Position numbers and translations under genes: made by a program. The notes beneath the pieces were generated by a model that saw nothing but the letters and a program-made list of their open reading frames with translations, did not search any database and was not told the DNA's origin. DNA of 64,000 nt from Eledone cirrhosa (lineage: Eukaryota). Below, piece after piece: positions 9,633-64,000 of the stretch. Numbering within the stretch: the stretch's first letter is position 1; each line of letters opens with the position of its first letter. The stretch lies in NCBI GenBank assembly GCA_964016885.1, contig OZ024755.1, forward strand, positions 19,034,001 to 19,098,000. The letters are read 5' to 3'.

Positions 9633-12218
9633 TGGGGTTGATATGACTGACTAAATTGATGGGGTTGATATGACTGACCAAATTGATGGGGTTGATATGA
9701 CTGACCAAATTGATGGGGTTGATATGACTGACCAAATTGATGGGGTTGATATGACTGACTAAATTGATGGGGTTGATATGACTGACTAAATTGATGGGGT
9801 TGATATGACTGACCAAATTGATGGGGTTCATTTGACTGACTAAATTGATGGGGTTGATTTGACTGACTAAATTGATGGGGTTGATATGACTGACCAAATT
9901 GATGGGGTTGATATGACTGACTAAATTGATGGGGTTGATTTGACTGACCAAATTGATGGGGTTGATATGACTGACCAAATTGATGGGGTTGATATGACTG
10001 ACTAAATTGATGGGGTTGATATGACTGACTAAATTGATGGGGTTGATATGACTGACCAAATTGATGGGGTTGATATGACTGACTAAATTGATGGGGTTGA
10101 TTTGACTGACCAAATTGATGGGGTTGATATGACTGACCAAATTGATGGGGTTGATATGACTGACCAAATTGATGGGGTTGATATGACTGACCAAATTGAT
10201 GGGGTTGATTTGACTGACCAAATTGATGGGGTTGATATGACTGACTAAATTGATGGGGTTGATATGACTGACTAAATTGATGGGGTTGATATGACTGACC
10301 AAATTGATGGGGTTGATATGACTGACTAAATTGATGGGGTTGATATGACTGACCAAATTGATGGGGTTGATATGACTGACTAAATTGATGGGGTTGATAT
10401 GACTGACTAAATTGATGGGATTGATATGACTGACCAAATTGATGGGGTTGATATGACTGACCAAATTGATGGGGTTGATATGACTGACTAAATTGATGGG
10501 GTTGATATGACTGACCAAATTGATGGGGTTGATATGACTGACTAAATTGATGGGGTTGATATGACTGACTAAATTGATGGGGTTGATATGACTGACTAAA
10601 TTGATGGGGTTGATATGACTGACCAAATTGATGGGGTTGATATGAGTGACTAAATTGATGGGGTTGATATGACTGACCAAATTGATGGGGTTGATATGAC
10701 TGACCAAATTGATGGGGTTGATATGACTGACCAAATTGATGGGGTTGATATGACTGACTAAATTGATGGGGTTGATATGACTGACCAAATTGATGGGGTT
10801 GATATGACTGACTAAATTGATGGGGTTGATATGACTGACCAAATTGATGGGGTTGATATGACTGACTAAATTGATGGGGTTGATATGACTGACTAAATTG
10901 ATGGGGTTGATATGACTGACCAAATTGATGGGGTTGATATGACTGACCAAATTGATGGGGTTGATATGACTGACCAAATTGATGGGGTTGATATGACTGA
11001 CTAAATTGATGGGGTTGATATGACTGACTAAATTGATGGGGTTGATATGACTGACCAAATTGATGGGGTTGATATGACTGACTAAATTGATGGGGTTGAT
11101 ATGACTGACCAAATTGATGGGGTTGATATGACTGACCAAATTGATGGGGTTGATATGACTGACTAAATTGATGGGGTTGATATGACTGACTAAATTGATG
11201 GGGTTGATATGACTGACTAAATTGATGGGGTTGATATGACTGACCAAATTGATGGGGTTGATATGACTGACTAAATTGATGGGGTTGATATGACTGACTA
11301 AATTGATGGGGTTGATATGACTGACCAAATTGATGGGGTTGATATGACTGACTAAATTGATGGGGTTGATATGACTGACCAAATTGATGGGGTTGATATG
11401 ACTGACTAAATTGATGGGGTTGATATGACTGACTAAATTGATGGGGTTGATATGACTGACTAAATTGATGGGGTTGATATGACTGACTAAATTGATGGGG
11501 TTGATATGACTGACTAAATTGATGGGGTTGATATGACTGACTAAATTGATGGGGTTGATATGACTGACCAAATTGATGGGGTTGATATGACTGACCAAAT
11601 TGATGGGGTTGATATGACTGACCAAATTGATGGGGTTGATATGACTGACCAAATTGATGGGGTTGATATGACTGACCAAATTGATGGGGTTGATATGACT
11701 GACCAAATTGATGGGGTTAATATGACTGACCAAATTGATGGGGTTGATATGACTGACTAAATTGATGGGGTTGATATGACTGACCAAATTGATGGGGTTG
11801 ATTTGACTGACCAAATTGATGGGGTTGATATGACTGACCAAATTGATGGGGTTGATATGACTGACTAAATTGATGGGGTTGATATGACTGACCAAATTGA
11901 TGGGGTTGATTTGACTGACCAAATTGATGGGGTTGATATGACTGACCAAATTGATGGGGTTGATATGACTGACTAAATTGATGGGGTTGATATGACTGAC
12001 CAAATTGATGGGGTTGATTTGACTGACCAAATTGATGGGGTTGATATGACTGACTAAATTGATGGGGTTGATATGACTGACCAAATTGATGGGGTTGATT
12101 TGACTGACCAAATTGATGGGGTTGATATGACTGACTAAATTGATGGGGTTGATATGACTGACCAAATTGATGGGGTTGATTTGACTGACCAAATTGATGG
12201 GGTTGACATGATCAAATT
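9633..12218. repeat. 27-bp minisatellite, ~95 copies (gatggggttgatatgactgacYaaatt)
   Basis: Directly visible, highly homogeneous tandem array. Confidence 0.98.
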
Positions 12219-23887: not shown

Positions 23888-25650
23888 CATCATCATCATT
23901 TTACATCTGCTTTTCCCTGCTTGCAAGGGTGGGACGGGTCCTATTCAGCACAGCATCTCTCCACTTGTCACGGTCCTTCGTCATCTCCTCCGTGAGCTTC
24001 AGCGATGTGAGGTCTGCTCTTACCACCTCCGCCCATGTTTTTCGTGGTCTTCCTCTACTGCATCTTCCTTCTACTGGCATTTCTTGGCACTTCTTTACCC
24101 AGCGGTCATCGTCCATGCACATCACATGCCCATACCATCACAGCTTGCAATGTCCTCAAAGACCATTCCTCTACACCTAGTTTCCTTAGGGACCACCAGA
24201 TGACAGATCGGGGTACCCTATCAAAGGCCTTCTCTAGGTCAACAAAAGCTAGGTATAGTGGCTTATTCTTCTCTAAGAACCTCTCTTGTAGTTGTCTCAC
24301 TAAGAAGAGGGCATCTGTTGTACTTTTCCCAGGCACAAAACCAAACTGCATCTCATCTAATTTGACCTTTTCTATAATTAGTTGCGCTAATATTCTCTCT
24401 GCCACTTTCATAACCTGATCCATCAGTTTTATGCCCCTATAATTGCTCTTTTCCAGAGCATCCCCTTTAACTTTGTAGCAATTTATGAGAATACTGCTGC
24501 ACCAGTCTTTGGGTATGACACCTTCATATTGATTGATGATGCCTGCAACCAGTTTAGTGCCTACTTCTCCTGATGCCTTCAGCATCTCAGCAACTATCCC
24601 CGACGGTCCAGCGGCCTTACCATTTTTCATTTCCTGAATTGCCTCTTGGACCCTATATTCATCATCTCAATAGCTGGTCTCTCTGTCGGGTCTACTGGAG
24701 GTAATTTCTCTCTCTTCCATTCGTTCTCTACATTCATTAGTCTTTCATAATGACATTTCCAGGCCTCCTTTTTCTGATCATTCATGACACTTTTTCTGAT
24801 CATTTCCAGGCCTCCTTTTTCTGATAATTTTCCACACCTTCCTGTATGTCTCATTTTGTCTCTTGCTTACTGAGATGTCACTAACGACTAACCTATGCTG
24901 TGGGGTACATTCTTCCCTGGGGTATGCCTTAGTATTTGACACCATCTGTCTGTCACGCTGCCTAACTAGCAAGAAGTTAATCTGGCTTATGTGCTCACCT
25001 GATTTGTAGGTTATTAAGTGGTTGGTAGGTTTATTGAAGTTAGTGTTGCAAATGGTTAGTGCACGTGCATCACAAAATTCAAGAAGCCTCACTCCTTCTT
25101 CATTTCTTGAGCTGTAACCATACCCACCATGTACCCCAGTGTAGTATCCATCCTGGAGCTATCCAACATGACCATTGAAGTCCCCTGCTAGCATAACGAT
25201 GTCTCCATCCTCTGTCATTGTGGCTGTTCCCAAAAGTTGCTCGTAAAAGCAGTCTTTCTCTTCTTTACCTAGGCCTACCTGGGGAGCATAGGCAGAGATG
25301 ATTGTCAGCAGTCTCTTGCCTACAACTAACCTAAGCTTAATTATTCTATTACTAACTCTAACTACCTCTATTGTCTTATCGATCCATCTCTCAGCCAGTA
25401 AAATGCCTACCCCATCTAACCCATCATCATTACCTACCCAGAAAAGCTTATAACTAAGATGTTTGCCTGCAATTAGTCCTCCTGAGGCACCTCTCCATCT
25501 CACCTCTTGCACGCAGCACACATCCACATGCCTTCTCTCCAGCATCTCCGCTATCTCACCAGAGCTACCTGTTAGAGTGCCAACATTAAGTGTGGCAACT
25601 CTGAGATGCGACATCTTCATATTCTTGTTCTTATTCCTGTTGTGCGATTG
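23888..25650 (-). mobile_element. RTE-clade LINE, internally deleted and frameshifted (AP endonuclease, partial RT, 3' end)
   Basis: APE motifs RVATLNVGTL, CCVQEVRW, ISAYAPQ, AGDFNGHVG, PQHRLVVSD. RT motifs GKAAGPSGI, NYRGIKL, QFGFVPGKSTTDA, AFVDLEKAFDRVP. Near 24139 it jumps straight to the C-terminal WYGHV...RGRPRKTW and a (TGA)n tail, so the catalytic YxDD region is missing. Confidence 0.92.
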
Positions 25651-49528: not shown

Positions 49529-49747
49529 AAGGAACGATCGACTTTTGTCAAATCGGACCGAGGGAACAATGTTTCCGTTGGTCTTTCCAATTGCTAATAC
49601 TATCTATCGGTTGCAACTCCAGGTAGAAGGAGCAACGTGAAATAAAGTGTCTTGCTCAAGGACATAATGCATCGCCTGGTCCAGGAATCGAACTCACAAC
49701 CTTACGATTGCGAATACAATTCTCTAACCACTCAGCCACACACCTTC
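49529..49747 (-). mobile_element. SINE, inverted near-identical copy of 48541-48760
   Basis: About 6 mismatches over ~219 bp by manual comparison. Confidence 0.85.
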
Positions 49748-50228
49748 ACTATATATATATATATAGTAATAATAATAAATTTGAAGACTAAAATCCAAAG
49801 AGGGCTCGATAAGGATAAATATATATCAAATATATATGAACCGTAGAGCAAATATTTATTGAAATAACAGATTAAAGTTGAAGCAAAGAATCGCTGCTTT
49901 CACCCTTAACGGGATCTTCTGGTGAACGCAGAAGTGAATATTTCAAAAAACGTTGCAAACGGAGGATGACAGGAAGATGATACTTTGGTTCGTGGAAACG
50001 TTCCCTATACAAATAAGTAATGGTATAAACATAACATATACTTAGCTACCACATTTCATATATAAATATATAGAGAGTATATATAATATAATATAGAAAC
50101 TGTGTGTATATATATATATAATACTGAAACAAAGTCATCGAATAGGACCAATATAGCTTCAATCATTTTCCCACTTATTCAATGATTTAATTAAGTCAGT
50201 ATCATTATGAATGATACCAACCATTATT

Positions 50229-50482: not shown

Positions 50483-53400
50483 CCCATAAGTAGATGAATC
50501 AGCACCTCTCAATTTCTGATGCGACCCAACCTGGTAGAATTCAGACAAGGTACTCCTATCAGACCAACAAGCTCGAGCAAATTCACTGGCATCTAAATAG
50601 AAATCCATTGATGACATTAAACCATCAGGTGAATCATCATTTGAAGAGTATCCTTGTCCTTTTAATTTAATGTTGTTTTTATCTTTGGTCTGTTTTAAAT
50701 CATCATAACTTGTCTTGGTGATAGAGTCCAGGGATTCTGAGCTTTCGGATTCTGAGTTTTCATAAATAGATGATCGAATAATGTTGGCATAAACTGATCT
50801 AGATGTAGGCATATTTCTGTATGCTCTTTTCCCATCAAAATAGAGCTCATTCTCACTTTTGCTTAAATCATTATTAGATTTAGTTTGTGAAAATTGCTTC
50901 CAAGATTCATTCAATAATGTTGGTGAACCAATAATGCTGAAAATTTCATCACATAACGAACCAACTTCTCTAGGTGAAGAACTGTAAATATCTTGTTCTG
51001 ATTTTGATATATCTCTTTGATTTCCTGATAATGATTGTGTTCCTTCAGATGTGGCATATTTGTTTAAGATGTTTACAGAATGTCTTTCTTGTTTCTCCAT
51101 TATTACTTTACTTTTGTTATTTTCACTCAATTTTCGAATATTTTCTTGAGGTAAATCCATTTTTTCTTTAAGTAAATCCATTGGTTGAAGTTCAGAATCA
51201 ACAAATTTTCTTGGAGGATCAATAATTTGATCACCAGTAATTATTTTTTGATTGGGAATTTCTTTTAATACTCTTTCCATATTGAATGATGGTATATCAT
51301 TTGAATCAAGTTGCATTCCTTTGTTTGAATTTACAGGTTCAAAGTTCAAGTAAAATACATTCTCCTCAGCATCGACAGGTAAAACAACATCATATTCATC
51401 TGTAATAGGCACCCAATCCATATCACATGGTTGTGCAATGCCTGAATCTATTAATCTCCCAGTATCAACATCAACTGATAATGTATCAATATCTGATACT
51501 GCCATTGATACATTATCAAACTCAAGAAGTGGAGGTTCAAAACCTGAATCGACAAGTGGCTCACACTTCAACTCATCAATAGAAGATTGTATGCTCGGAT
51601 CATCTCTAATCGTATCTGAATCAATGGATGCTTCTTGATCACTATCTGAAGTCGGTTCTATTATTGAAGGATGAGAAATTTGCTCCAAGTTATTTTTCTG
51701 TAAATCACATGATATCTTTTCATTGTTTTTAAACTCCATGTTTGTTGAATCCATGTTTGTTGAACTAGGTGACCCCTGCATATATGAGACTTCAGGATCA
51801 TCTTGAGACAAATTATTCTTTAACTTAACAGAAGCAATGCTAACAACATTGGTATCACACATAGTTTCATCCATATCGACAAAAGGTATTTCATCCACAA
51901 TTTCAGGAGAATATGTCTTCTGTTCTGCAATAAATGGTTGCGCAGTTTCAGAGTCTGAAATTAGTTCAGCTTGTGATATATGTTTAACCTCCTCAAGTTT
52001 TCGCTCAGCCATCCCAGTGTCTCCATAATCTCTTGAGATAGTATCAAGGGTAAGAGTACTTGTCATTTCAGATGAAGGCCCATCAACAGAATCATAATTG
52101 CTTGTAATATCATCCGAAGAAGTTTTGTACACTTTTGAATTTTCATGCGCAGATTCTTCTTCAAGTGGCCTTTTAATATAGCTACAATACAATGAGGTTT
52201 CAACAAAATTTAAGGAATTTTCATTATTCTCCCAGCCCTCTTTTTCAAACATAGGGCTCTGGTTAAACAATTCTCCCTTGCAGTTAGGTGGTTTAGAAAT
52301 TACATCTAAATTACCAATTGATTCTTGCTTTAAAGTCAAAGAATTTTCTTCAGAGCTATCATCCTTTACAATCTCTGCTGAAGAATATCTCTCAGTAAAA
52401 CTATTTTCTCCATCACTGTTTGGAGTAACTGGTGTAGACTTCAAAATGTAATCCTGGTATTTTTCAGATGGAATACTTGAACCATCATCAAGGATGTATC
52501 CTCTCTTCCATTTGCCTTCATGTTTGATCCAAGATTCCTTTATTGGGGAAACTATTTCATCCGACTTTGGACTGAGGTTTTGCATTGTGTCTGCTTTTGG
52601 TATGTTTAGTGCCAAAGAAGAATTACTCCTTGAAGGGCTAATATTTTCATTAACATTCTTAGGACTAGGACAGGGACTTGTACAAAAAGCATCCAGTCTT
52701 TTAAAACTTGGTGACCGTTCTTTTCGATCAATTGAATTTTTTGAAGGAGATGGTGATTTTAAATCCTTGCTCGAAACTGATTCCTTTTGTCCACAAAGTT
52801 CAAGAATTTTCTGTTTCCTTAAATTGAGAGTTCCCTGAAGTTGCCGAAGTGTGAAATCTTGATTGGAACTATCATTGGTTTTCTTTGCTCCATCATTCTT
52901 GAGGAGAAGAAAGCCGCCATCTTCTAATTCCATTTCTTGAGAAATATCATCATCATAATTACAAATATTAACCTCCAAAGAATCAAATTGTTTCTGGTAT
53001 CCACAGTTAAAGCTATTATCATGTGTTCTTTCCATTGCTTCATTGGAGTTGATATCTGTTTCAAGTACACTTTTGTCATCTAAAACAGTATTTCCAGCCA
53101 AACTGTGTTTTGTTTGACTCTTAAAGTTATCAAGTTTCACATCAGCAGATCTAAGTTGGATATTCTCAGCTAGGGAATCAGTGTGAAAACAGGGGTCAAA
53201 CTGATGGGAATGTAAATAGGAATCCTTGTTAATCAGTTTTTCCTTACATCCAGATATTAATTGTTGATCAGGATGATCAAAATCAGCTCCCACAGAATCT
53301 GTTCTTAAATGCATATGTCCCCCCAAGTTTGAGGGTGGTACTTCATCTGATAAAATATCTGGAGCATCATCTTCACTCATTTGAGTTTGTAACTGTCTCA

Positions 53401-56400
53401 GAATAGTTCCATGAAAATTTCCATGAACTCGTGATGAAGTGTTGTTAGATTCAACACTGGGAGACTGATCAAGCAGTTCTTCTACATCTTCTCCAATACT
53501 AGATTCAGCTATATTTTCCAATGTGATTGATGTACTAAGATTTTCATATTGACTGTCTGTTTCTGCTTCAATTGTGAACCATAAATTTTGACTTTCATTA
53601 CTATCCAGTGTCACTTCAGCAAGATCTTCTCCAGCATCTACAATAGGACGCACTCCCATAATGTCATCATTTGTAAAACGAGCTGCTTCTTCATCGTAAC
53701 TTCTTTCATCAGTCACAACATAATCTTGTTCTTCAACAATAATCTCATCTTCACCATCTGGACTCCCAGACACTTGTAATGTACTGTCTTCAATTTCTAT
53801 AAGGACACCTTCAGTCTCGCCTTCTGCAGAGTCATTAACCTGCTTACAGGTATCACTTAGTTCATCCACATTGCTTATGTCATTCAGTTGAGAGGCTTCC
53901 TGGTCAAATATTTCCTGAACATCACTAAGGGGTGTGACAGCTCCATCACTGATATCTTTGAAGCTACTACTATCATTACTGCAGGGGCTGAGCATCTGAC
54001 CAGCAAGAAATCCCATTTCAGATGGTAAGAATGGGCCTGTCATCTGCCGAGTTGCATTAGAATCCAGTTGTTGCTGTTGATGGTGTTGTTGTTGTTGTTG
54101 TTCCATAAACAGCGTAGCACTACTCCTTGATAAGTCACCTTTCTCACATATGACATCTGTGTCATAGGTCTGAGTACTTGTCTGAGATGTGTGAAGATCC
54201 CCTAGTTGTAGTTTAGACGACGACTGGATCCCTTGTGGGTCTGCCATTTCCTGAAGGCTGCAGTTGGTAACATCAGCTTTTATTGTTGCTGTTACTGCAA
54301 GTAATGATGTTGATGATGATGTTGTTGTTGTTGTTGTTGTCACATCAACTTCCCCAAAACTTATCTGTTGTTTAAACAAAGCTTCTTCTCCAACATTCAC
54401 TTGTGTTAGTGATGTTGGTCTGTCTCTTTCTCTTTGCAACAACAGTTTGTTGACAGGGCAGTTGGCAGCTTCCTCATCACTTCTCTCAGCTCCCGCGAGT
54501 TCTCCTTCAGTATCAACTTCTCCCCTCAGAACTGTAGTAGTTTTGGTAGCTGTCACATCTTTACTTGTTCTGTCTGTAGTAGAAACTGGGTTACATCCAC
54601 CACCACCACTGTTTTCATTCCTCAAAACATTGTGGTGGGCTATTTGGGGTGGGGTGAACTCTACTACTGGCATCCCATGCCCTGCCACTCTGTAAATGTC
54701 AGCTGACTTAAATACAACCACTGATGCTTTCTCTTCTAACTTTTCACACTCACCCACTGCTTTTTTCTCCCCATCTTCTTCTGCCTGCTTTTCATTTTGT
54801 CCCTCTTCAAATTCAAAGTTAAATACAAATTTACTATCATTAATTCTATGAAGCTGTGGACCAGACTGAGCACTCCTCCCCTCATCTGTTGATAAACTTT
54901 TTAAACTATCCTCAGTTCCACTAGATTGGTGTGGTCGATGATAATGGTGTTGAGGGGGATGATGAGGGTATTGTTGTTGGGGGTGGGGCTGTCCATAGTG
55001 CTTCTGTGGCTGCTGATAACCACAGCTGGAGAAATTACAGTCATAACTAGCTTCATAGTCAAAAGTTTTATCAGAAAAAGCATCAGATTTAATTACAGCA
55101 TGGTCTGATAATTTTAGTTTTACTCTGTTTTCCTCTAACTCTTCTTTTCTCTCTCTTTCTTCTTTTTCCTCTATTTCACTCCACTCATCCTCACTGGTAG
55201 TAGGCTGGTGGTAACTACTGGTAACTTCTCTGCTGCAAGCATGGCCAGCTGACTGTGGGCGCCTGAAGCCAGTGTGTTTTTCAGTGCAGCTGTCACTAGA
55301 AGTGGGCACAAGAGACCCATTATTACACACATAATCCTCGTGCAAACTGATGTCCAGTGCAGAAGCTGAAGAACTTGTCGGACAGCTCTCTGAAGCTTCA
55401 ATATCAGAGAGGTGATTGTGGCTTGAAACACTATCTAAATCACCAACCTGCACGCTAGGCTCGGATATGCTTTCATCGGAAAGGGCCTCGGTTATTATCA
55501 TGTAGTCATCATAAGCAAAATTCTCCGAAATATTTGGTTTTGTTGATGAGCTATCTTTGTCAACTTTGTCTTCATTTTCAGGTGCGTCATCAAATTCCTT
55601 ATAACGTACTTCTGAATTTTCCACCTCGTTAACTGAACGCGTATTCTTAGTTTTATCCAACAATAACCGGTTACTGTCATAGCTTGCTTTTCCCTGAACA
55701 TTTTTACCAGCTGTTTGACTGACCCCTTTATTAGGCTGACCCTCTAACAACTTAGTTTTTTTCATACCAGATGAAATTTTAGAAGCAGTAGGTAAATTAG
55801 AAGTCACTTTATGGTCATTAATACTTCGACCTGTTTTTGCCACAGGTTGTTTCTTTTTAGATAATGGTTCAATAGTTTCATTTGATTTTAATGATGTAGT
55901 TTTTCTACCAATACTTGATACACTTTTTTTTATTTGAGTTTTATCAGTATTAGTGGGTGGTTTGCAGTCCTGACTGCTAGTACTAATTCCCGCTGCTGTT
56001 CTCCTCTCTAAAACTGCAGAGGTGCTACAGCGGACATTGCCTAATTTTTTATTGTCCAGTTTGTCAGCTGCAGTTGCAGCAGTAGGTATTGAACTACTGC
56101 TACCGCCACTAACTCTGCTAGCCTTCAATAAAGAAATACCACCACTGTATTTTTCTTTTTGATGAACCAAGCCTCCATTACTAATGCTTTGAGTTGAAGT
56201 TAATTTTTTATTGTGCGAAATACTTTTTTGTTGAACTGTACTGTCGGAAGAGGGGCGAGATTTAACTGATAAATTTTCACAACTTGCTTGTAATGTATTT
56301 TTTTTCTTTTTTGATAAATTTTCACAACTTTTTCCAAACGAGTTTTGGATTTTGTTTGATAAATTCTCTGAACTAACTGTTTTTAGATTATCTTTATTTT

Positions 56401-59400
56401 GAATTTTGCTACCTATTCTAGTTGTGCGGTTAACTGAAAGATCGGAAGATGAATCAGCAACTTTCTTTTGCCTCAGTGACGACAGACCACTAGTTTTAGT
56501 AACTGTTGTTGTATTAGGTCTACCAGTTGGAGGAACACTGAGTTTATTGGAATTATTTCTTAACGATCCTGTACTCACAGCTCTTTGTAAGTTTTCTGTG
56601 TTAACTCGTGACGTTAGACGTGAATGTGCAGGTGATGTCTTGGATGGGTGTGGAGACATGGTAGAATTACTAGACCGAGAGACAGTCGTGGATGAAGTGG
56701 TACGGCTAAGCATGGACGGTTGTTTTTGTAGTTTAGTTTCTGCTTTAGATACAGCTAAACGAGAACATGAACTTGTAAGAATTTTACTTGTTTTACCAAG
56801 CCCACCTTTAGTGGAACTTGGAAGACAAATAGAAGATTTAACAGATGAAGTGGATAACTGGGAACAAAAGGAAGAATGACTAGCATGGCTGGACTCGGAG
56901 TCTGACCGATGACGGAATTTATCATTTAATTCATTAACTACTTTGACTTCGTCAATAGCTGATTCACTATCAGCTAGTGATTCTTGAGAGAGAACTGTAG
57001 AAATATGTTTATCAATTGAAATTAATTCATTAGAATTTTTGGAACTTATATCACTGCTTGTTTGATGTTTAGCTTTACTTAATGCTGTGTTACGATGAAT
57101 TTTAGAACTGCTAACAGATTTACTACCCACGTTAGTATTTTTCAAATTTGCTATGTTTTTATCACCTTGTTTCTTAACAACATTTGTATCTCCGTTAACA
57201 ACAATAGAAGGTTTTTTACCTGTACATTTAGAAGGAAGCCTACTACTGTCAGCACTTGTGTGTTGGGTGGTTTGTTTGTTAAGTGAGATCTTAGAGGTCT
57301 GGTGGTCAGCCAAAGTAGATTTCCCGCGAGGAAGCTGGCTGGATTTCACAGAAGAATGCTTAGTCACCGAATTCATGTTTGTTTTTTGTTTTTGTTGAAC
57401 AGGTATTTTACACGGAGACGAACTTTTTTTCATTTCAACTCGATTACCGGTGGACACACCACCGTAGTCCGTAGATAGAATAATTTCTCCAGACCCCTCA
57501 CCGGAGATTCTGTCACATTTCCTATACAATGCCGATTTATGAAATCCGTCAGCAGTTTGGTTGTTAATAATTTTGGTAGAATCCATGTTAGTGTCTTCAT
57601 TGAATATTATCCACGTTTCCGAACCCGATTCGATGTCTCTACATACATCAATTGAAGAATGAAGAACATCGTCAGAATTATTATCACACAACACACGCCG
57701 CAGTTGTTCTAACCACTCTGCTTCTCCCTTCACTACTGACTGCTGTGTACTGGGTAATTTGGCAGGTATACTACACCTGTAATTGGTCGGATTGTTAGAA
57801 AACTTCTGTAGTAGATCTTTACATTTGTCAGAGTAGCATTTGTTATGTAGACGACACGAACGGTCGCCGTTTCCGTAAAGAAAATTATTAGTTTGAGGAG
57901 GTAAACACCACAGATGCTCTGTATTGACCGGTTTCGTTTTCAATTCCGATTCCGACAGTGTAAGTTCCACTATTCCAGTGTCTGCAATATCCTTATCTCC
58001 TCCGTCGTCGTCGTAGTCGTCGTCGTCGTCGTCTTCACCGCCGCCACCACTGCTGCAGCTGGTGGTGGTGGTGGTGGTGGTGTTGGATGTACCAACGTAG
58101 TTGGAATAGGTTGGTAAAAATGACCGTATTGCCGTAGAAGTGGGGTGTCCGTGTATTGCTGCTGTTGTTTGCTGTTTCAATAAGACAGAGCTACTACTAC
58201 TACTACTACTACTGCTGGTACTACTACTACTACTACTACTTCTGCTACTGTTGTTGTTGTTACAGTTGCCGCTATATTTCCTATGACTGTCAGCATGGAT
58301 AATAAACAACGGTAGCGAACCATCTTTCAGAACCGTATCGTTACAAACCACCGATATATGATCTGTGTGAACATCTTCTTCCACATCAACCACTGGTGGT
58401 GGTGGTGGTGCTGTTGTTGTTGCTGCTGCTGCTGCTGCCGCATTAGACAGTTCATTTCCTCTACAGCCTAAAGTACAAACAACGTAGTCGGCCGATTCGT
58501 TTGTGCTTACTCGACAGATTTCCTTATCAAAGTCAAAACTCTCACTACTTTCCCGCGATCTTTCTTCACTCTCGCTTACCTTAATGCGAGTGGTCCCTGC
58601 GACCTCACTACTATCAGTAGAATTAGTAGTAGTGGTTGTAGTAGTAGTAGTAGTAGTGGTGGTGGTGATGGTGTTATTGTTGTTACCTTTATAAGTACTG
58701 GGGTTGGTGTAGTAACGTTGATTAGAGGTACAGCAGCCACCGCAGTAACGAGTAGCTTCGATACACGGCGGCCCCTTTGTTGCAGAGGAGTGGCAAAGCA
58801 GCCCAAACTGATTTACTATATTTTCGGTGCCACAGTAATTACAACGACTGCTAACTTGCTGGTTGCAACAAACAGCTTTCGTCGCTTCATTAACACATAA
58901 ATTACTATTATGCTGACGAGAAGACTTACAAGGATTTTCAACGAGAAGAAAATGCGAATCTTTTAACTTTCCTGCAGACGAATTTTTACGATTTTTTTCC
59001 TGGTTTGTCAGAGATGGTGGTTTATCGCTAAATAATCCATTGGGTTGTGCCCGGCCTTCTCGTTGGGCAGTGGTGGTGCTGATAGCTTCTCTATCAAATG
59101 TGTTTTTCCTTTTATCATTAGTTCTAGCTTTATTGAATGTATCCCTGCTTCCACAGTCGCTCCTATTTTGTGTTTTCTTCGCTTCTTTCACGTGTTCGGA
59201 AATAAGTGTAGAGGAGGTGAGAACAACATTGTTAGAAGTAAGGGGAAAACATGAGGGGACCAATATCGTTTGGGCAGCATTTCCTAATGAAGTTACTACG
59301 GCTGGTGCTGGGCTGTAAAAAAAGCTGTTGCTAGAAGGCGAAGATGAAGGAGAAGATATTATCCCGCTATCTTTTCTAACGCATGTTTCTGTGGTTGGGG

Positions 59401-62400
59401 TAGGGTGAATAGGAATCTCAGTAGTGAAAACTATAGATGGAAAGGAAGATAAAAGTGATGTTTGGGGAGATTTTCCCCCTGCTGCTGTTGATAAAGATGA
59501 TAAATGCGATAAAGAAGGAACCAACTTGGTTGGTATCAAGCTTCTCCTCGTAGTAACAACATTTTCGCTGTGTTTATAACTGTTGTTGTTGTTGTTGTTG
59601 TTGTTGTCGATAGATTTTGTGTAAGTAAATCCAGGCAAGGGGTGAAACGATGTCGGGTCGGGCTCCTTTCTTCCCAGTGGTTCACTAACACAGCCAGCTG
59701 ACAACTGACCACTTATGGTGTGGTCAATACCAGGTTGAAAATATATAGTCTGGTCAGTGATGGGACATCGATAATATCCAACACTCTTTCCTTCTTTAGT
59801 CGACGACAGAACATCATGTTGTTCTGCTGCCTGGCTGTATGTAGTAGTAGTAGTGGTAGTAGTAGAGATAGTAGTAGTAGTTTTTGTTGTTGTTGTTGTT
59901 GTTGTTGTTGTCAAAGATGAAAAACTGAACAGATTATTATTGTTATTATTAGTGTCTACAGTTGAGTTGGTATGTATCGGGTGTCGGGTGGCTGGACTAT
60001 CACCTCCACCAATGATGATGTCATAGTTATCACTTTGGCTTTTGTTATCGACTAATTGGTATTTATTACAAATCGAACTACTCCGTCTTTCTACCAAATA
60101 TTGAGAATTATTAATATTATTAGTATTAGTAGTAGTATTAGTAAATTGATAATCGAACTTAGGGTTAGTCGAAGAAGAAGAAGAAGCGATAACATGTGAC
60201 TGTGGATACAAAATTAAATAATTTTTCTCACCTACCTCATTAATAGACTTGGTAGAAAAAGAACCAGCAAGTGTTGTAGTTCCTCGTTGTTTATAATTAG
60301 ATAATGATGACGACGATGCTGATGATGATGCTGATGATGATGAACAATTAAGCCGTGTTGTTGAAATATATTTAGTTCCGTTTCTATATTGTACCTGAGT
60401 GCCAACAATGTGGTGCTCTTTCAGTTCTTTCTCCTCCCTTTCTCCGCCGGGAAGTGCGCTTGTCGCGTGCCAAGTTCCTGGAATGCCTTTCGTAACGTGC
60501 CGATCCCTATACAATGCTAATTCTGTGACATTATTACTATCATCATTATTATTATTATTATCGTCGTCGTCGTCACAGCTGTCTAGCAAGTTGTCGCTGT
60601 ATCCACATGATTGGCAGCCACTAGCCTTCAAACGAGATGTTTTAAATTGATCACAGCAGCAGTTGCTACAGAGAAAATGCTTTGAAATGACGCAATTATT
60701 ATTATTATTGTTGTTAAAATTATCGATGACGATTCTTTTACGGAAATTATTTCCGTAATCTATTCTATTTCTCGAGTTTACCACTCCTGAATGCTGTTCA
60801 ATATTAACTCGGGTGTGGTCGGCAGTCCGTGACGCCCCTTCTTCTAACGGTACACTGTTTACACAACAATCGTTTAGTTTCAAATCAACCGTAACGGTCG
60901 ACTCTGTTCTATCAACTTTATTCACTTGACCGGAAACAGCCCTTGTCTTTGTAAAATATTCTGGTTGTTTACTTTTCCCAAACCCTGATAGGGAATTAAG
61001 TAATGTATGCTGGGGTGATATGTAATGTGTTTTATTAGAAATTTCTTTCTGGCATGTAATAATATCACCAGCAAGTAAGCCTTTCTTTACTGTTTGGTTA
61101 GTAAAACCTGTGGTCTGACATAATAAACCCAACGAGAGTTCATAACTTTGATCTTCTAACCGGTTATTCAAACAATCTTTACTTTGAACTGTTTCCTTTA
61201 TGTCACCGCCGGCTACGTCATTGTATATTTTTGGTTGACACGGATTAGCGACTTTCACATAAGTGTCCAAACTTTCAGTTGATCTCTTGTCTAAATCAAC
61301 TACACGACTTTTGTCATTGTTGCCATAATTTTCCAACAAATTATCTGTGGAAATTTCCGGGTAGTAATTTATTTCCTTGCTTGTGACCAGCAGCCTTGTG
61401 ATGACAACTGATGGTGTTGCTACTGCATTACTAGAGGAGATATCGCTTCCTAATTTTGGATATATTATCGAAGCTGAATGTTTATTGTAGCCAGTAATCT
61501 CTTGGCCAGTTCCAGCCGCTCTGGTGATATATTTAGTAATATCATCATCATCATGCTTGGTATTCTTACAGTGACCATTTCCCTGTCGAGGAAATATGAC
61601 AGTAGTAAAATCTCTCCCTGGTGAAATTGTCGATGTTGTTGTTGTTGCTATTGGCTTGTAAGTAGAAAAATCAGCAGCTGCTATGGGCGAGATAAATTCT
61701 GATACAACATTTAACCCGCTGGTCGATAATTTTTCTTCTTTGTGTGAACATAGCGGCGGAGATGACGGTATAGGGACTTGGTTTAGAAGTTCTGAATGAA
61801 TAATAGTGTTGTGTGAAATATTAATACCTCTATCTATAGGTGATGCTACATTTTCGGAACATTTCTGGTCTTCCAGAGCAAAAATATCAGTCGCCAATTT
61901 TTTATATTTAATGTGTGTTCTTCTATTTTTAGAAAATGTCGCCTTTTTAATTTTAATCATAAACTTGGCCAAGCCTAAACTTTTCCTAAGTTTTGATTTA
62001 ATAATCTTAGTTTTCCCAGCTTTTCTCGAAGAAAGTTTAGTTACAAAGCTAGGTAATTCTATTTCTTGTACCTTTGCTTTCTTATGAGAGCTGGGCGAAT
62101 TTAGAGTGGAAGTCGAAGTACATCTTGTATCGGGATTAAAAACAAATCGATTTGGGTATTTTGGAAATCCATCAAGCATCGATTGTGAATGCTTTTCAAA
62201 AATCAAAGGACTATCAATATTGGTGACCTTCTTTTTAGAATTACAGAAACTTCGAATCTCACAATTTTGTTTTCTTTGTACTTCACTAAAATCTGGATGA
62301 TAATTATCACCGTGTCCGTGACATCCCTTAAAATATTTTACATTGTAACCGGCAGAAGAAGCCTTTAACTGACCATGTTTCAAGCTATTTTGAGAAACTA

Positions 62401-62590
62401 TGTTTAAATCTCGAGAAGAAAGTAACAAAGTTTTATCAGGCGACTTCGTTAATCGGTTAATCGGTTTTCGATCTATCAATTTTAATCCTCTCGTTTCAAC
62501 AAGAGAGTTTTCCTGATCAACGGCTGAATTATTTAAGTCTAATTGATGTTTAGATTGGGAATGGTGGAAAGACTGTAGTATGCTCTTCAT
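50483..62590 (-). CDS. Giant coding exon (~12.1 kb, ~4036 codons) of an unidentified, largely disordered protein; spliced at its 3' end
   Basis: Stop-free 4041-aa ORF in AT-rich DNA. Its simple repeats are trinucleotide (polyN/T/S/D/Q/A/P), whereas the flanks are full of dinucleotide repeats. Donor TATGGG|GTAAGT at 50483/50482 falls after the Gly codon (phase 0), so the last 5 residues (VSNIL) are probably intronic. In-frame TAA at 62633-62635 lies upstream of the ATG. Candidate acceptor tttctcttttatttgcag| at 62677/62676. No folded domain recognised. Confidence 0.9.
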
Positions 62591-63610
62591 AATTACATTT
62601 CTAGAAAGGCTTTCAGCAATTTTCTCTCCAAATTATTTTCCTTGTCATTACATAAGTTCCCGAGAACAAAATATTTCTGCAAATAAAAGAGAAATTTGAC
62701 TGTAAAAAAACCTGAATAAACTTTTCTCCAAAATAGTAACATACTTTCCTACAAGCTATGTCAAGTTGACATATATATATATATACATATATCATAAGTA
62801 AATATATTTATTTATATATGTGTGTGTATGAATGAAATCACTACAAAGTGTGTCAATGTAAAATGATATTTATTGACATTAAAGGCACCAGTTTAGGAGA
62901 GAAAAGAGAAAGAGAAACAGGCTCATTGCATTTATTATTGTTGTCTCAGAACCAGACGAAATACAAAACTGTATTGATAGAAATTTCAAGCTAAAAAAAC
63001 CACAATCAAAAACTTCTATAAGAACTTCTGTAAGGACTTTTCTCTGAAATTTTCTTTGCAACTTATTTTCTTTATTATTATTCCATAAGTTCCCAAGATT
63101 CCTGCCGTATCTAAACATTAGATGTGACCGTGTTCTAACATAATGGTTTCATAATAAAGATATTATTTAAAATAAACCCAATTAAACGCATAAATACAAG
63201 TAATAAAACAAAACAGGGAGTCTGTAACGGTTTTGATTCTCACGAAAAAGCATAAATGTCACATCTCATCTGACATAGATAGTTTGGTATCCCCCGCCAC
63301 CCTGTCTTTGTTTCCTCATTATTTTTTAAACAATGTGTATTTTTTTAATGACATCTTTTTTCCAAAATTGTTTTCAAATGTATATATTAAGATTATGTTG
63401 GTGAAATAAAAAAAAAAGTTTTTCTTTAGTTTTAAATTGTAATATGTGATTTGGCAGCCATCTTTAACAGATCGAGCAACTGAGTAGAGGGAGACTCCTG
63501 GTGTGTGTTTGTGTGTTTGTTTTCAAAGTAATGTGCTATGAATTTATTGAAAGAAGCGTAGAAAGAAAGAATGAATGAAGAATAAATATCTAAAAATCAA
63601 TCAGTCTATT

Positions 63611-63920
63611 GCATGTGGTTAGGGAATTCGGCTTACGATCGTAAGGTCATGAGTTCGATTCTCGGCGGCGTGCTATGTCCTTGAACAAGACACTTTATTT
63701 CACGTTGCTCCACTTCACTCGACTGGCAAAAATGAGTTGTACCTGTAATTCGAAGAGCCAGCCTTGTCACATTCTGTGTCACGCCGAATCTCCCTGAGAA
63801 CTCTGTTAAGGGTACGCGTGTTTGTGGAATGCTCAGCCACTTGCACGTTAATTTCACGAACAGGCCGTTCCGTTGATCGGATCAACTGGAACACTCGTCG
63901 TCGTAACCGACGGAGTGCCC
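63611..63920 (+). mobile_element. tRNA-head / CORE-like SINE with a third tail type
   Basis: Head similar to 48541. The tail matches diverged copies at about 40375-40700(+) and 35935-36070(-). Confidence 0.8.
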
Positions 63921-64000
63921 TCCAGTTTTCTCTAGGATGAAAAGAACAACAGTGAAATAGTTTGACATAAAACTACAATTTGTATCCCACCCCACCACGA

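What the first reader, a model, noticed from the sequence alone, without database searches (positions are those of the whole stretch)
50483..62590. A single 12.1-kb exon encoding ~4000 aa with no recognisable domain
Seen: an unbroken frame despite many simple repeats, all triplet, implying selection to keep the frame; a consensus donor shows the gene continues leftward. The protein is zoned: basic N-terminus, homopolymer and Cys-rich region, Ser/Lys/Thr-rich basic region, then a long acidic region. Established: giant exons encoding disordered segments occur in neuronal cytoskeletal genes such as giant ankyrins and MAP1-like proteins. Inference: a lineage-specific giant N-terminal isoform of a gene whose conserved domains lie outside the window; the gene cannot be named from this sequence.
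Basis: partly seen in the sequence, partly recalled or inferred. Interest (0 to 1): 0.75.

Follow-up and report, generated by a model that had tools for sequence, protein, structure and literature searches.

The report
Giant exon of octopod Asef/collybistin gene
This 12-kb unbroken reading frame is the front exon of an octopus-type gene for a known cell-shape switch protein (the Asef/collybistin-type Rho activator); it reaches 5 kb further than public Octopus gene models, likely adds a long floppy arm to the protein, and its extra part has an unexplained run of 1,457 codons without methionine.

Summary
Real, and nameable. The frame is on the minus strand: ATG 62,590 to a phase-0 donor after 50,483, 4,036 codons, no Pfam domain. 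Its 3' 2,368 codons are the N-terminus of Octopus RefSeq SH3-DH-PH proteins (77% identical). The matching downstream exons lie intact 0.32-0.77 Mb to the left in this genome and match ARHGEF4/ARHGEF9 best (fly RhoGEF3 family). Contigs of three runs leave the genome exactly at the donor; a DNA-like run reads on. Long disordered 5' isoforms are known for SPATA13 and RhoGEF3, and this genome's ankyrin gene has frames just as long, so size alone is ordinary. New: the frame runs 1,668 codons upstream of the RefSeq start, has no database protein match, keeps frame in a relative (6 of 6 length changes are multiples of three), is CpG-rich like a promoter, and has no in-frame ATG for 1,457 non-repetitive codons while out-of-frame ATGs occur normally. 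Likely a two-start exon giving about 5,300- and 3,600-residue forms of a Cdc42 activator; function of the arm is inferred, not shown.

The parts
62677..62699 (-). Acceptor-like site (pyrimidine tract + CAG); likely 5' boundary of the exon, upstream exon not found
   Evidence: Best-scoring AG between 50,483 and 64,000 with a matrix from 15 acceptors of this gene; 6 of 2,518 intron AGs and 0 of 864 exon AGs score as high. Use not shown.
62591..62676 (-). 86-nt leader with two ATG-stop elements and an 11-codon upstream frame
   Evidence: sequence
61958..62590 (-). Residues 1-211: basic N-terminus holding the only three Met codons of the 5' part (1, 138, 211)
   Evidence: organism-A contig aligns at 61,920-62,033 without gaps
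57587..61957 (-). Residues 212-1668: open, homopolymer- and Cys-rich, CpG-rich zone with no in-frame ATG; absent from RefSeq models
   Evidence: frame-keeping gaps in organism A; no protein match (for residues 1-1200)
57584..57586 (-). Met1669 (AAC ATG G context), start of the Octopus RefSeq long isoforms and of the distant protein P0005
55601..57586 (-). Residues 1669-2330: basic Ser/Lys zone with four [ST]x[IL]P motifs; the two at 57,340-57,329 and 57,244-57,233 are kept in P0005
50483..55600 (-). Residues 2331-4036: acidic zone with short, strongly conserved islands; CpG-poor
52436..52546 (-). Residues 3349-3385: conserved island predicted to fold as three strands plus a helix
   Evidence: pLDDT about 80; no Pfam, PDB or fold match; single copy in the genome
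50477..50482 (-). Splice donor GTAAGT, phase 0; start of about 319 kb of intron(s) to the next located exon (G000:C15:18,765,330)
   Evidence: contigs of X5, X1, X3 stop aligning at exactly 50,483 with 73, 2,037 and 2,021 further letters, X6 reads through

Best explanation
The frame is the giant 5' coding exon of this genome's Asef/collybistin-type (ARHGEF4/ARHGEF9/SPATA13, fly RhoGEF3) SH3-DH-PH gene, spliced at 50,483, and it likely adds a mostly disordered arm that repositions and dampens a predicted Cdc42 activator. Shown: frame, donor use, homology, intact downstream exons. Inferred: translation from Met1 gives about 5,300 residues, and Met1669, probably served by a promoter inside the CpG-rich 5' part, gives the about 3,600-residue form that RefSeq annotates; shorter forms start at later first exons. 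Inferred by analogy with SPATA13 SP-1277: the arm changes location and lowers exchange activity; the basic Ser/Lys zone with SxIP/SxLP-type motifs would tether it to microtubules or their EB tip proteins, and the conserved islands would be binding or phosphorylation sites.
For:: residues 1669-4036 are 77% identical to the first 2,294 residues of Octopus LOC106874706/LOC115210255, which continue after the same donor into SH3-DH-PH; 16 downstream exons found in order on the same strand of C15 (18.32-18.77 Mb), 15 with their AG checked; DH exons 92-100% identical; best PDB matches ARHGEF4 (E 5e-157) and ARHGEF9 (4e-151), next family P-Rex 1e-67; this genome's own DH exon ranks them the same; exact break at the donor in 3 runs, read-through in X6; no listed joint has splice-type ends (15 of 24 joints shown; 15 of 33). 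5' part: 0 stops against 99.9 expected, codon bias of the 3' part holds in frame in 6 of 6 blocks; in organism A 6 of 6 distinct length changes upstream of Met1669 are multiples of three (3, 3, 3, 12, 21, 24), while repeat pieces at 63.6-63.9 kb show gaps such as 1, 2, 10, 19. X5 and organism-A contigs bridge Met1669. Four SxIP/SxLP motifs in 660 residues against 0.71 expected, p about 0.006; also 5 in P0002 and 4 in P0005. Papers: PMC5769646, PMC7233598 (passages).
Against: No single contig spans the exon, and the letters beyond the donor were not displayed, so the partner exon in this species is taken from the Octopus models. No run is on record as RNA; X5 is judged RNA only from its break at the donor and may share a study with the assembly. 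All 17 long proteins from named sources that were listed start at Met1669, as does P0005, and P0004 starts only 46 residues upstream, where it is visibly more diverged. No protein matches the 5' 1,668 codons. Stops in organism A's 5' part could not be read. Only 8 upstream difference sites were displayed, 4 of 8 at third positions against 39 of 58 downstream. The SxIP zone was chosen after seeing the sequence, and only one of the four motifs has a fully basic, acid-free context (rule recalled). Cdc42 specificity and any effect of the arm rest on human and fly homologues.
Confidence: 0.78

Rival explanations
1. Only the 3' 7.1 kb is protein-coding (start Met1669, as in RefSeq); the 5' 5 kb is promoter and leader whose frame is a recent or dying remnant.
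For: Strong start context at Met1669 and the same start in all long RefSeq models and P0005; CpG o/e 0.89 in the 5' part and 0.24 from 2 kb below Met1669 onward; no protein match for the 5' part.
Against: 0 stops in 1,682 codons against about 100 expected, in-frame codon bias, 21 triplet and 0 non-triplet microsatellites, 6 of 6 frame-keeping length changes in organism A. RefSeq would also pick Met1669 if its transcripts were 5'-truncated, because it is the first Met after the desert.
Confidence: 0.1
2. The exon is an ordinary internal exon entered in frame from an upstream coding exon; a one-base assembly error near 62,633 hides the join, so Met1 is not the start and the protein is longer still.
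For: Strong acceptor at 62,676; the phase-0 frame from it is open for 27 codons and overlaps the long frame.
Against: A frame open for the 15 codons needed is common by chance; no upstream coding exon was recognisable among frames of 100 codons or more in the 60 kb to the right (small exons not tested).
Confidence: 0.07
3. The 5' part is translated but spliced internally (alternative acceptors such as 58,467, or internal introns), so the full 4,036-residue arm is rarely made.
For: An acceptor-like AG at 58,467 scores 9.8, within the range of the real ones (8.3-17.7), and 17 GTRAG words lie in the exon.
Against: No listed joint has splice-type ends; GTRAG density in the exon (17 in 12.2 kb) equals the intron's 1.3 per kb; the whole frame is kept open.
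Confidence: 0.05

Closest known systems
Octopus bimaculoides LOC106874706 / Octopus sinensis LOC115210255 long isoforms (XP_014778007.1, XP_036357918.1 and others)
   Same: Orthologous gene; residues 1669-4036 of this frame are 77% identical to their first 2,294 residues; same donor and same downstream exons.
   Different: They start at Met1669; this frame has 1,668 further codons upstream.
Human SPATA13/ASEF2 long isoform SP-1277 (PMC7233598, passages read)
   Same: Same SH3-DH-PH family; a large 5' exon adds a disordered N-terminal region (625 residues) to a short form; the long form has its own location and lower GEF activity.
   Different: The arm here is 2,400-4,000 residues; no sequence likeness to the human arm was tested or found; gene is single here against three paralogues in vertebrates (recalled).
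Drosophila RhoGEF3 (PMC5769646, passages read)
   Same: [quoted passage not shown]
   Different: Exon structure and arm sequence not compared here; predicted octopod long form is larger.
Giant ankyrin long exons (PMC5135030, passages read)
   Same: Single multi-kb exons (mean about 8.1 kb there) coding Ser/Glu/Thr/Asp/Lys/Pro-rich, poorly conserved arms; this genome's ankyrin locus has frames of 1,539-4,204 codons.
   Different: Unrelated gene; ankyrin long exons are internal, CpG-poor here (0.17-0.36) and lack Met only inside tandem repeats.

Membership tests
Asef/collybistin family (ARHGEF4, ARHGEF9, SPATA13, RhoGEF3) | SH3-DH-PH in this order at the C-terminus | tested here: met
   Pfam on P0001-P0003; the coding exons lie in order in this genome.
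Asef/collybistin family (ARHGEF4, ARHGEF9, SPATA13, RhoGEF3) | Closer to ARHGEF4/9 than to other Dbl proteins | tested here: met
   P0006: 527 and 508 bits against 232 for P-Rex2 and 63 for PIX; own DH exon 124/116 against 88 bits. No tree was built.
Asef/collybistin family (ARHGEF4, ARHGEF9, SPATA13, RhoGEF3) | Conserved DH catalytic Glu, Lys and Asn | tested here: met
   EREY, QKICKY and INERK words are present in this genome's exons and align with ARHGEF4; their match to RhoGEF3 E526/K677/N726 is my inference.
Asef/collybistin family (ARHGEF4, ARHGEF9, SPATA13, RhoGEF3) | APC-binding region just before the SH3 domain (Asef1/2) | tested here: inconclusive
   Alignment to ARHGEF4 starts 7-8 residues before the SH3 domain, also for the APC-bound chain 3nmz_D; too short to call.
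Asef/collybistin family (ARHGEF4, ARHGEF9, SPATA13, RhoGEF3) | Long and short isoforms from alternative 5' exons | tested here: inconclusive
   Met in relatives: P0009, P0012, P0019 have other N-termini joining the shared exon. In this species only the long form's donor was seen.
Asef/collybistin family (ARHGEF4, ARHGEF9, SPATA13, RhoGEF3) | GEF activity on Cdc42 (and Rac), SH3 autoinhibition | not testable with these tools
   Shown for the fly and human proteins.
   The gene's folded part is SH3-DH-PH; the UPA-bearing ankyrin locus is on another contig, C1.
SxIP-type EB-binding microtubule tip proteins | [ST]x[IL]P motifs in a basic, Ser-rich disordered stretch, conserved | tested here: inconclusive
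   4 motifs against 0.71 expected; two kept in P0005; only one in a strict context (rule recalled).
SxIP-type EB-binding microtubule tip proteins | Tip tracking in cells | not testable with these tools
   Needs live imaging.

The most novel reading that the evidence does not exclude
The 5' 5 kb is dual-use DNA: coding sequence for a 5,300-residue isoform and, at once, a broad unmethylated promoter for the Met1669 isoform. Selection has removed every in-frame ATG from 1,457 codons so that transcripts starting inside the exon can give only the Met1669 protein or nothing - a 'start-codon desert' that enforces two discrete proteoforms of an Asef/collybistin GEF, missed by all public Octopus models.
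Probability: 0.3. Interest if true: 0.7.

Novelty: new variant of a known kind. Interest (0 to 1): 0.42.

Why it matters
It names the gene, and suggests that cephalopod models of the Asef/collybistin orthologue are short by about 1,670 residues. Vertebrate collybistin organises inhibitory synapses and SPATA13's long form differs in location and activity, so a 4,000-residue arm on the single octopod gene is a tractable case of how giant exons retune a Rho GEF. The methionine desert, if kept in relatives, would be a clean natural test of selection against internal start codons inside a coding exon that doubles as a promoter. The size of the exon alone is not unusual in this genome.

Tried and rejected
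No RNA holder listed (no evidence on expression either way). Parts of the 5' region have no contig cover, and X5's contig ends at 57,754 without a loose end while X6 runs to 57,992; organism-A contigs go on past that point, so this is one study only and I do not use it as a transcription start. Depth in bins 62,676-63,123 of X1, X2, X4 has no listed piece and probably comes from short AG-rich matches; not used. Complex prediction of this genome's EB1 C-terminal exon (two copies, no alignment, lacking the C-terminal tail) with residues 1742-1795: no answer, score 0.21 against a mark of 0.34, no controls folded. Fold search of the acidic-zone model: best Z 2.9, 0 of 48,161 chains at Z>=5; the hairpin was not folded alone. 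PDB sequence search of the hairpin: one hit at E=1, rejected. Metagenome scan for relatives' DNA: 242 pattern matches, 0 confirmed. Protein searches for the 5' part: 0 of 7,968, 0 of 7,983 candidates and 0 hits among 1.84 billion representatives; this species' own contigs were not found either, so the blank says little. Protein Atlas gave no result. The optional 24-residue exon seen in some Octopus isoforms was not located, nor the last 60 residues or so of the tail. tblastn found no downstream exon inside the window. Earlier-finding look-ups by place, sequence and words gave nothing on this locus. Mutation bias as the cause of the Met desert was rejected: G-ending Val/Leu codons are 20% there, ATA/ATT/ATC number 79, ATG 0. 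Tandem repetition as the cause was rejected: 97% of 6-mers are unique. Paper searches: 'giant exon'+'cephalopod' 0 papers; collybistin/ARHGEF9/octopus listed 10 of 131 papers, none holding 'octopus'; a search on in-frame AUG depletion listed 15 of 215, none on such a desert by title or abstract start; the SxIP consensus paper was not found. Supplements were not read; ankyrin S4 Table may list mollusc exon sizes.
Full report
Observation. The frame is real and lies on the minus strand: stop to stop 62,632-50,468 (4,055 codons), first ATG 62,590, donor GG|GTAAGT after 50,483 in phase 0, so 4,036 codons. The other five frames are full of stops. All 24 exact microsatellites of 12 nt or more in it have period 3, whereas the 50.5 kb to the left hold 113 dinucleotide arrays. 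Pfam finds nothing. The window is G000:C15:19,034,001-19,098,000 of a 3.0-Gb genome; the homologues make it an octopod.

Identity of the gene. A protein search gave 5 hits among 1,874 candidates scored. Three are Octopus RefSeq proteins (LOC106874706, LOC115210255) whose first 2,294 residues match frame residues 1669-4036 at 77% and which end in SH3, RhoGEF and PH domains; cluster members are named Rho GEF 4 or Rho GEF 9-like. In those models the match ends at this very donor and goes on into a 15-residue exon or a 24-residue exon before it. In this genome the 45-nt exon sits at C15:18,765,330-18,765,286 with AG and GT, 319 kb from the donor, and 15 more exons follow in order down to 18,316,615. 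Against solved structures the folded part matches ARHGEF4 (E 5e-157) and ARHGEF9 (4e-151) far ahead of P-Rex2 (1e-67), and this genome's own DH exon gives the same ranking. Only one such locus was found, with a stricter first look that may miss weak copies. The gene spans at least 780 kb.

Splicing. Contigs of run X5 (no differences from the window in the long pieces), X1 and X3 (organism A, about 89% alike) stop aligning at exactly 50,483 and carry 73, 2,037 and 2,021 more letters; X6 reads through into the intron. That is the pattern of spliced RNA beside DNA, though no run is on record as RNA and the extra letters were not shown. X5 pieces tile 50,483-57,754 with short breaks at repeats; none of the joints listed has splice-type ends (15 of 24 shown, 15 of 33). 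No contig spans the exon.

The 5' 1,668 codons. All long RefSeq models start at Met1669, and no protein matches the part upstream. It still behaves as coding: 0 stops against a mean of 99.9 in 1,000 local shuffles, and the codon bias of the 3' part holds in frame in 6 of 6 blocks. Organism-A contigs align in eight places between 57,848 and 62,033; the six distinct length changes (3, 3, 3, 12, 21, 24) are all multiples of three, unlike those in repeat pieces at 63.6-63.9 kb. Against: P0005 also starts with the same four residues as Met1669, P0004 starts only 46 residues upstream and is more diverged there, and stops in organism A could not be read. An acceptor-like site at 62,677|62,676 is the best AG from 50,483 to 64,000 (6 of 2,518 intron AGs score as high), which would make a 12,194-nt second exon with an 86-nt leader; its use is not shown. 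With the 1,277-residue tail of P0002, Met1 gives 5,313 residues and Met1669 gives 3,645.

Two unexpected signals. First, Met occurs at 1, 138 and 211 and then not until 1669: 0 ATG in 1,457 codons, with 79 ATA/ATT/ATC codons, against 37 ATG in the 2,368 codons below. Out-of-frame ATGs are at expectation (36 against 36.2, 12 against 14.2). Random placing of 40 Met never gave such a gap in 200,000 trials; the analytic value is 7e-7, the smallest of 20 amino acids, next 1e-4 for Lys. Against the Met-poorer basic zone alone the contrast is weaker (Fisher p 0.02), and the pattern was noticed after the fact. As a control, four long frames at this genome's ankyrin locus have Met gaps up to 666-791 only inside tandem repeats (16-41% unique 6-mers) and up to 337 elsewhere; here 97% are unique. 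Second, CpG o/e is 0.89 in the 5' part, 0.66 in the 2 kb below Met1669 and 0.24 beyond, 0.00-0.75 (mostly under 0.45) in the intron and 0.17-0.36 in the ankyrin frames. Nautilus has methylated gene bodies and unmethylated promoters and first exons (PMC12532940, passages), so the 5' 7 kb looks like a promoter-proximal domain, centred near Met1669 rather than ending near Met1. Together these suggest, but do not show, an exon that is also a promoter and has been cleared of in-frame starts.

How it likely works. The shared C-terminal SH3-DH-PH unit is predicted to load GTP on Cdc42, as fly RhoGEF3 does in vitro; flies make long and short forms (PMC5769646, passages). In human SPATA13 a large exon 2 adds 625 disordered residues, changes location and lowers activity (PMC7233598, passages). 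By analogy the octopod arm is a targeting and damping module. Its basic Ser/Lys zone has four [ST]x[IL]P motifs (0.71 expected), two kept in the 44%-identical P0005; that such motifs bind EB proteins is recalled. The acidic zone is predicted mostly unfolded with one 37-residue folded island (shallow alignment, so low confidence elsewhere is weak evidence). All of this is inference.

Comparison and novelty. Long exons coding disordered regions are general (PMC9825244, abstract; PMC5135030, passages), this genome's ankyrin has a 12.6-kb frame, and earlier unchecked notes of this scan report 19.6-kb and 129-kb exons in the same genome. The gene and 59% of the exon are already in RefSeq. What is new is the 5-kb upstream extension and its methionine desert; the searches listed nothing on either. 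Other listings were seen as search lists only. Verdict: new variant of a known kind; interest 0.42; gene identity about 0.97, whole exon translated about 0.8, dual-use start-codon desert about 0.3.

Noticed in passing
window 9,633-12,211: 27-nt minisatellite, 95.5 copies, 96% matches, inside this gene's intron; stop-free on the minus strand for 942 and 698 codons in two frames. Exon status not examined.
   Followed up: no
window 24,109-24,666 (-): 186-codon frame that reads like a LINE reverse-transcriptase fragment (label recalled, not searched).
   Followed up: no
window 63,600-63,900 and 49,560-49,750: Interspersed repeat-like elements; the first draws very many contigs in all four runs laid.
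   Followed up: no
window 62,596-62,676 (-): Phase-0 frame from the acceptor is open for 27 codons and overlaps the long frame; leader also holds two ATG-stop elements.
   Followed up: partly
window 58,460-58,490 (-): Acceptor-like site at 58,467 (score 9.8), 881 nt upstream of Met1669.
   Followed up: partly
G000:C1:288,771,601-288,854,234 (+), loci L036-L044: Four long frames (1,539, 4,204, 2,744 and 3,320 codons) downstream of the ankyrin UPA exons; four candidate giant exons where the ankyrin paper reports one or two. Splicing not checked.
   Followed up: partly
G000:C15:19,114,000-19,158,000, loci L024-L028: CpG o/e falls to 0.08-0.51 again to the right of the window, as in a methylated gene body: an upstream intron of this gene or a neighbour.
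   Followed up: no
L022:1471-1617 (+): Exon coding the EB1 C-terminal domain; single match in the genome.
   Followed up: partly
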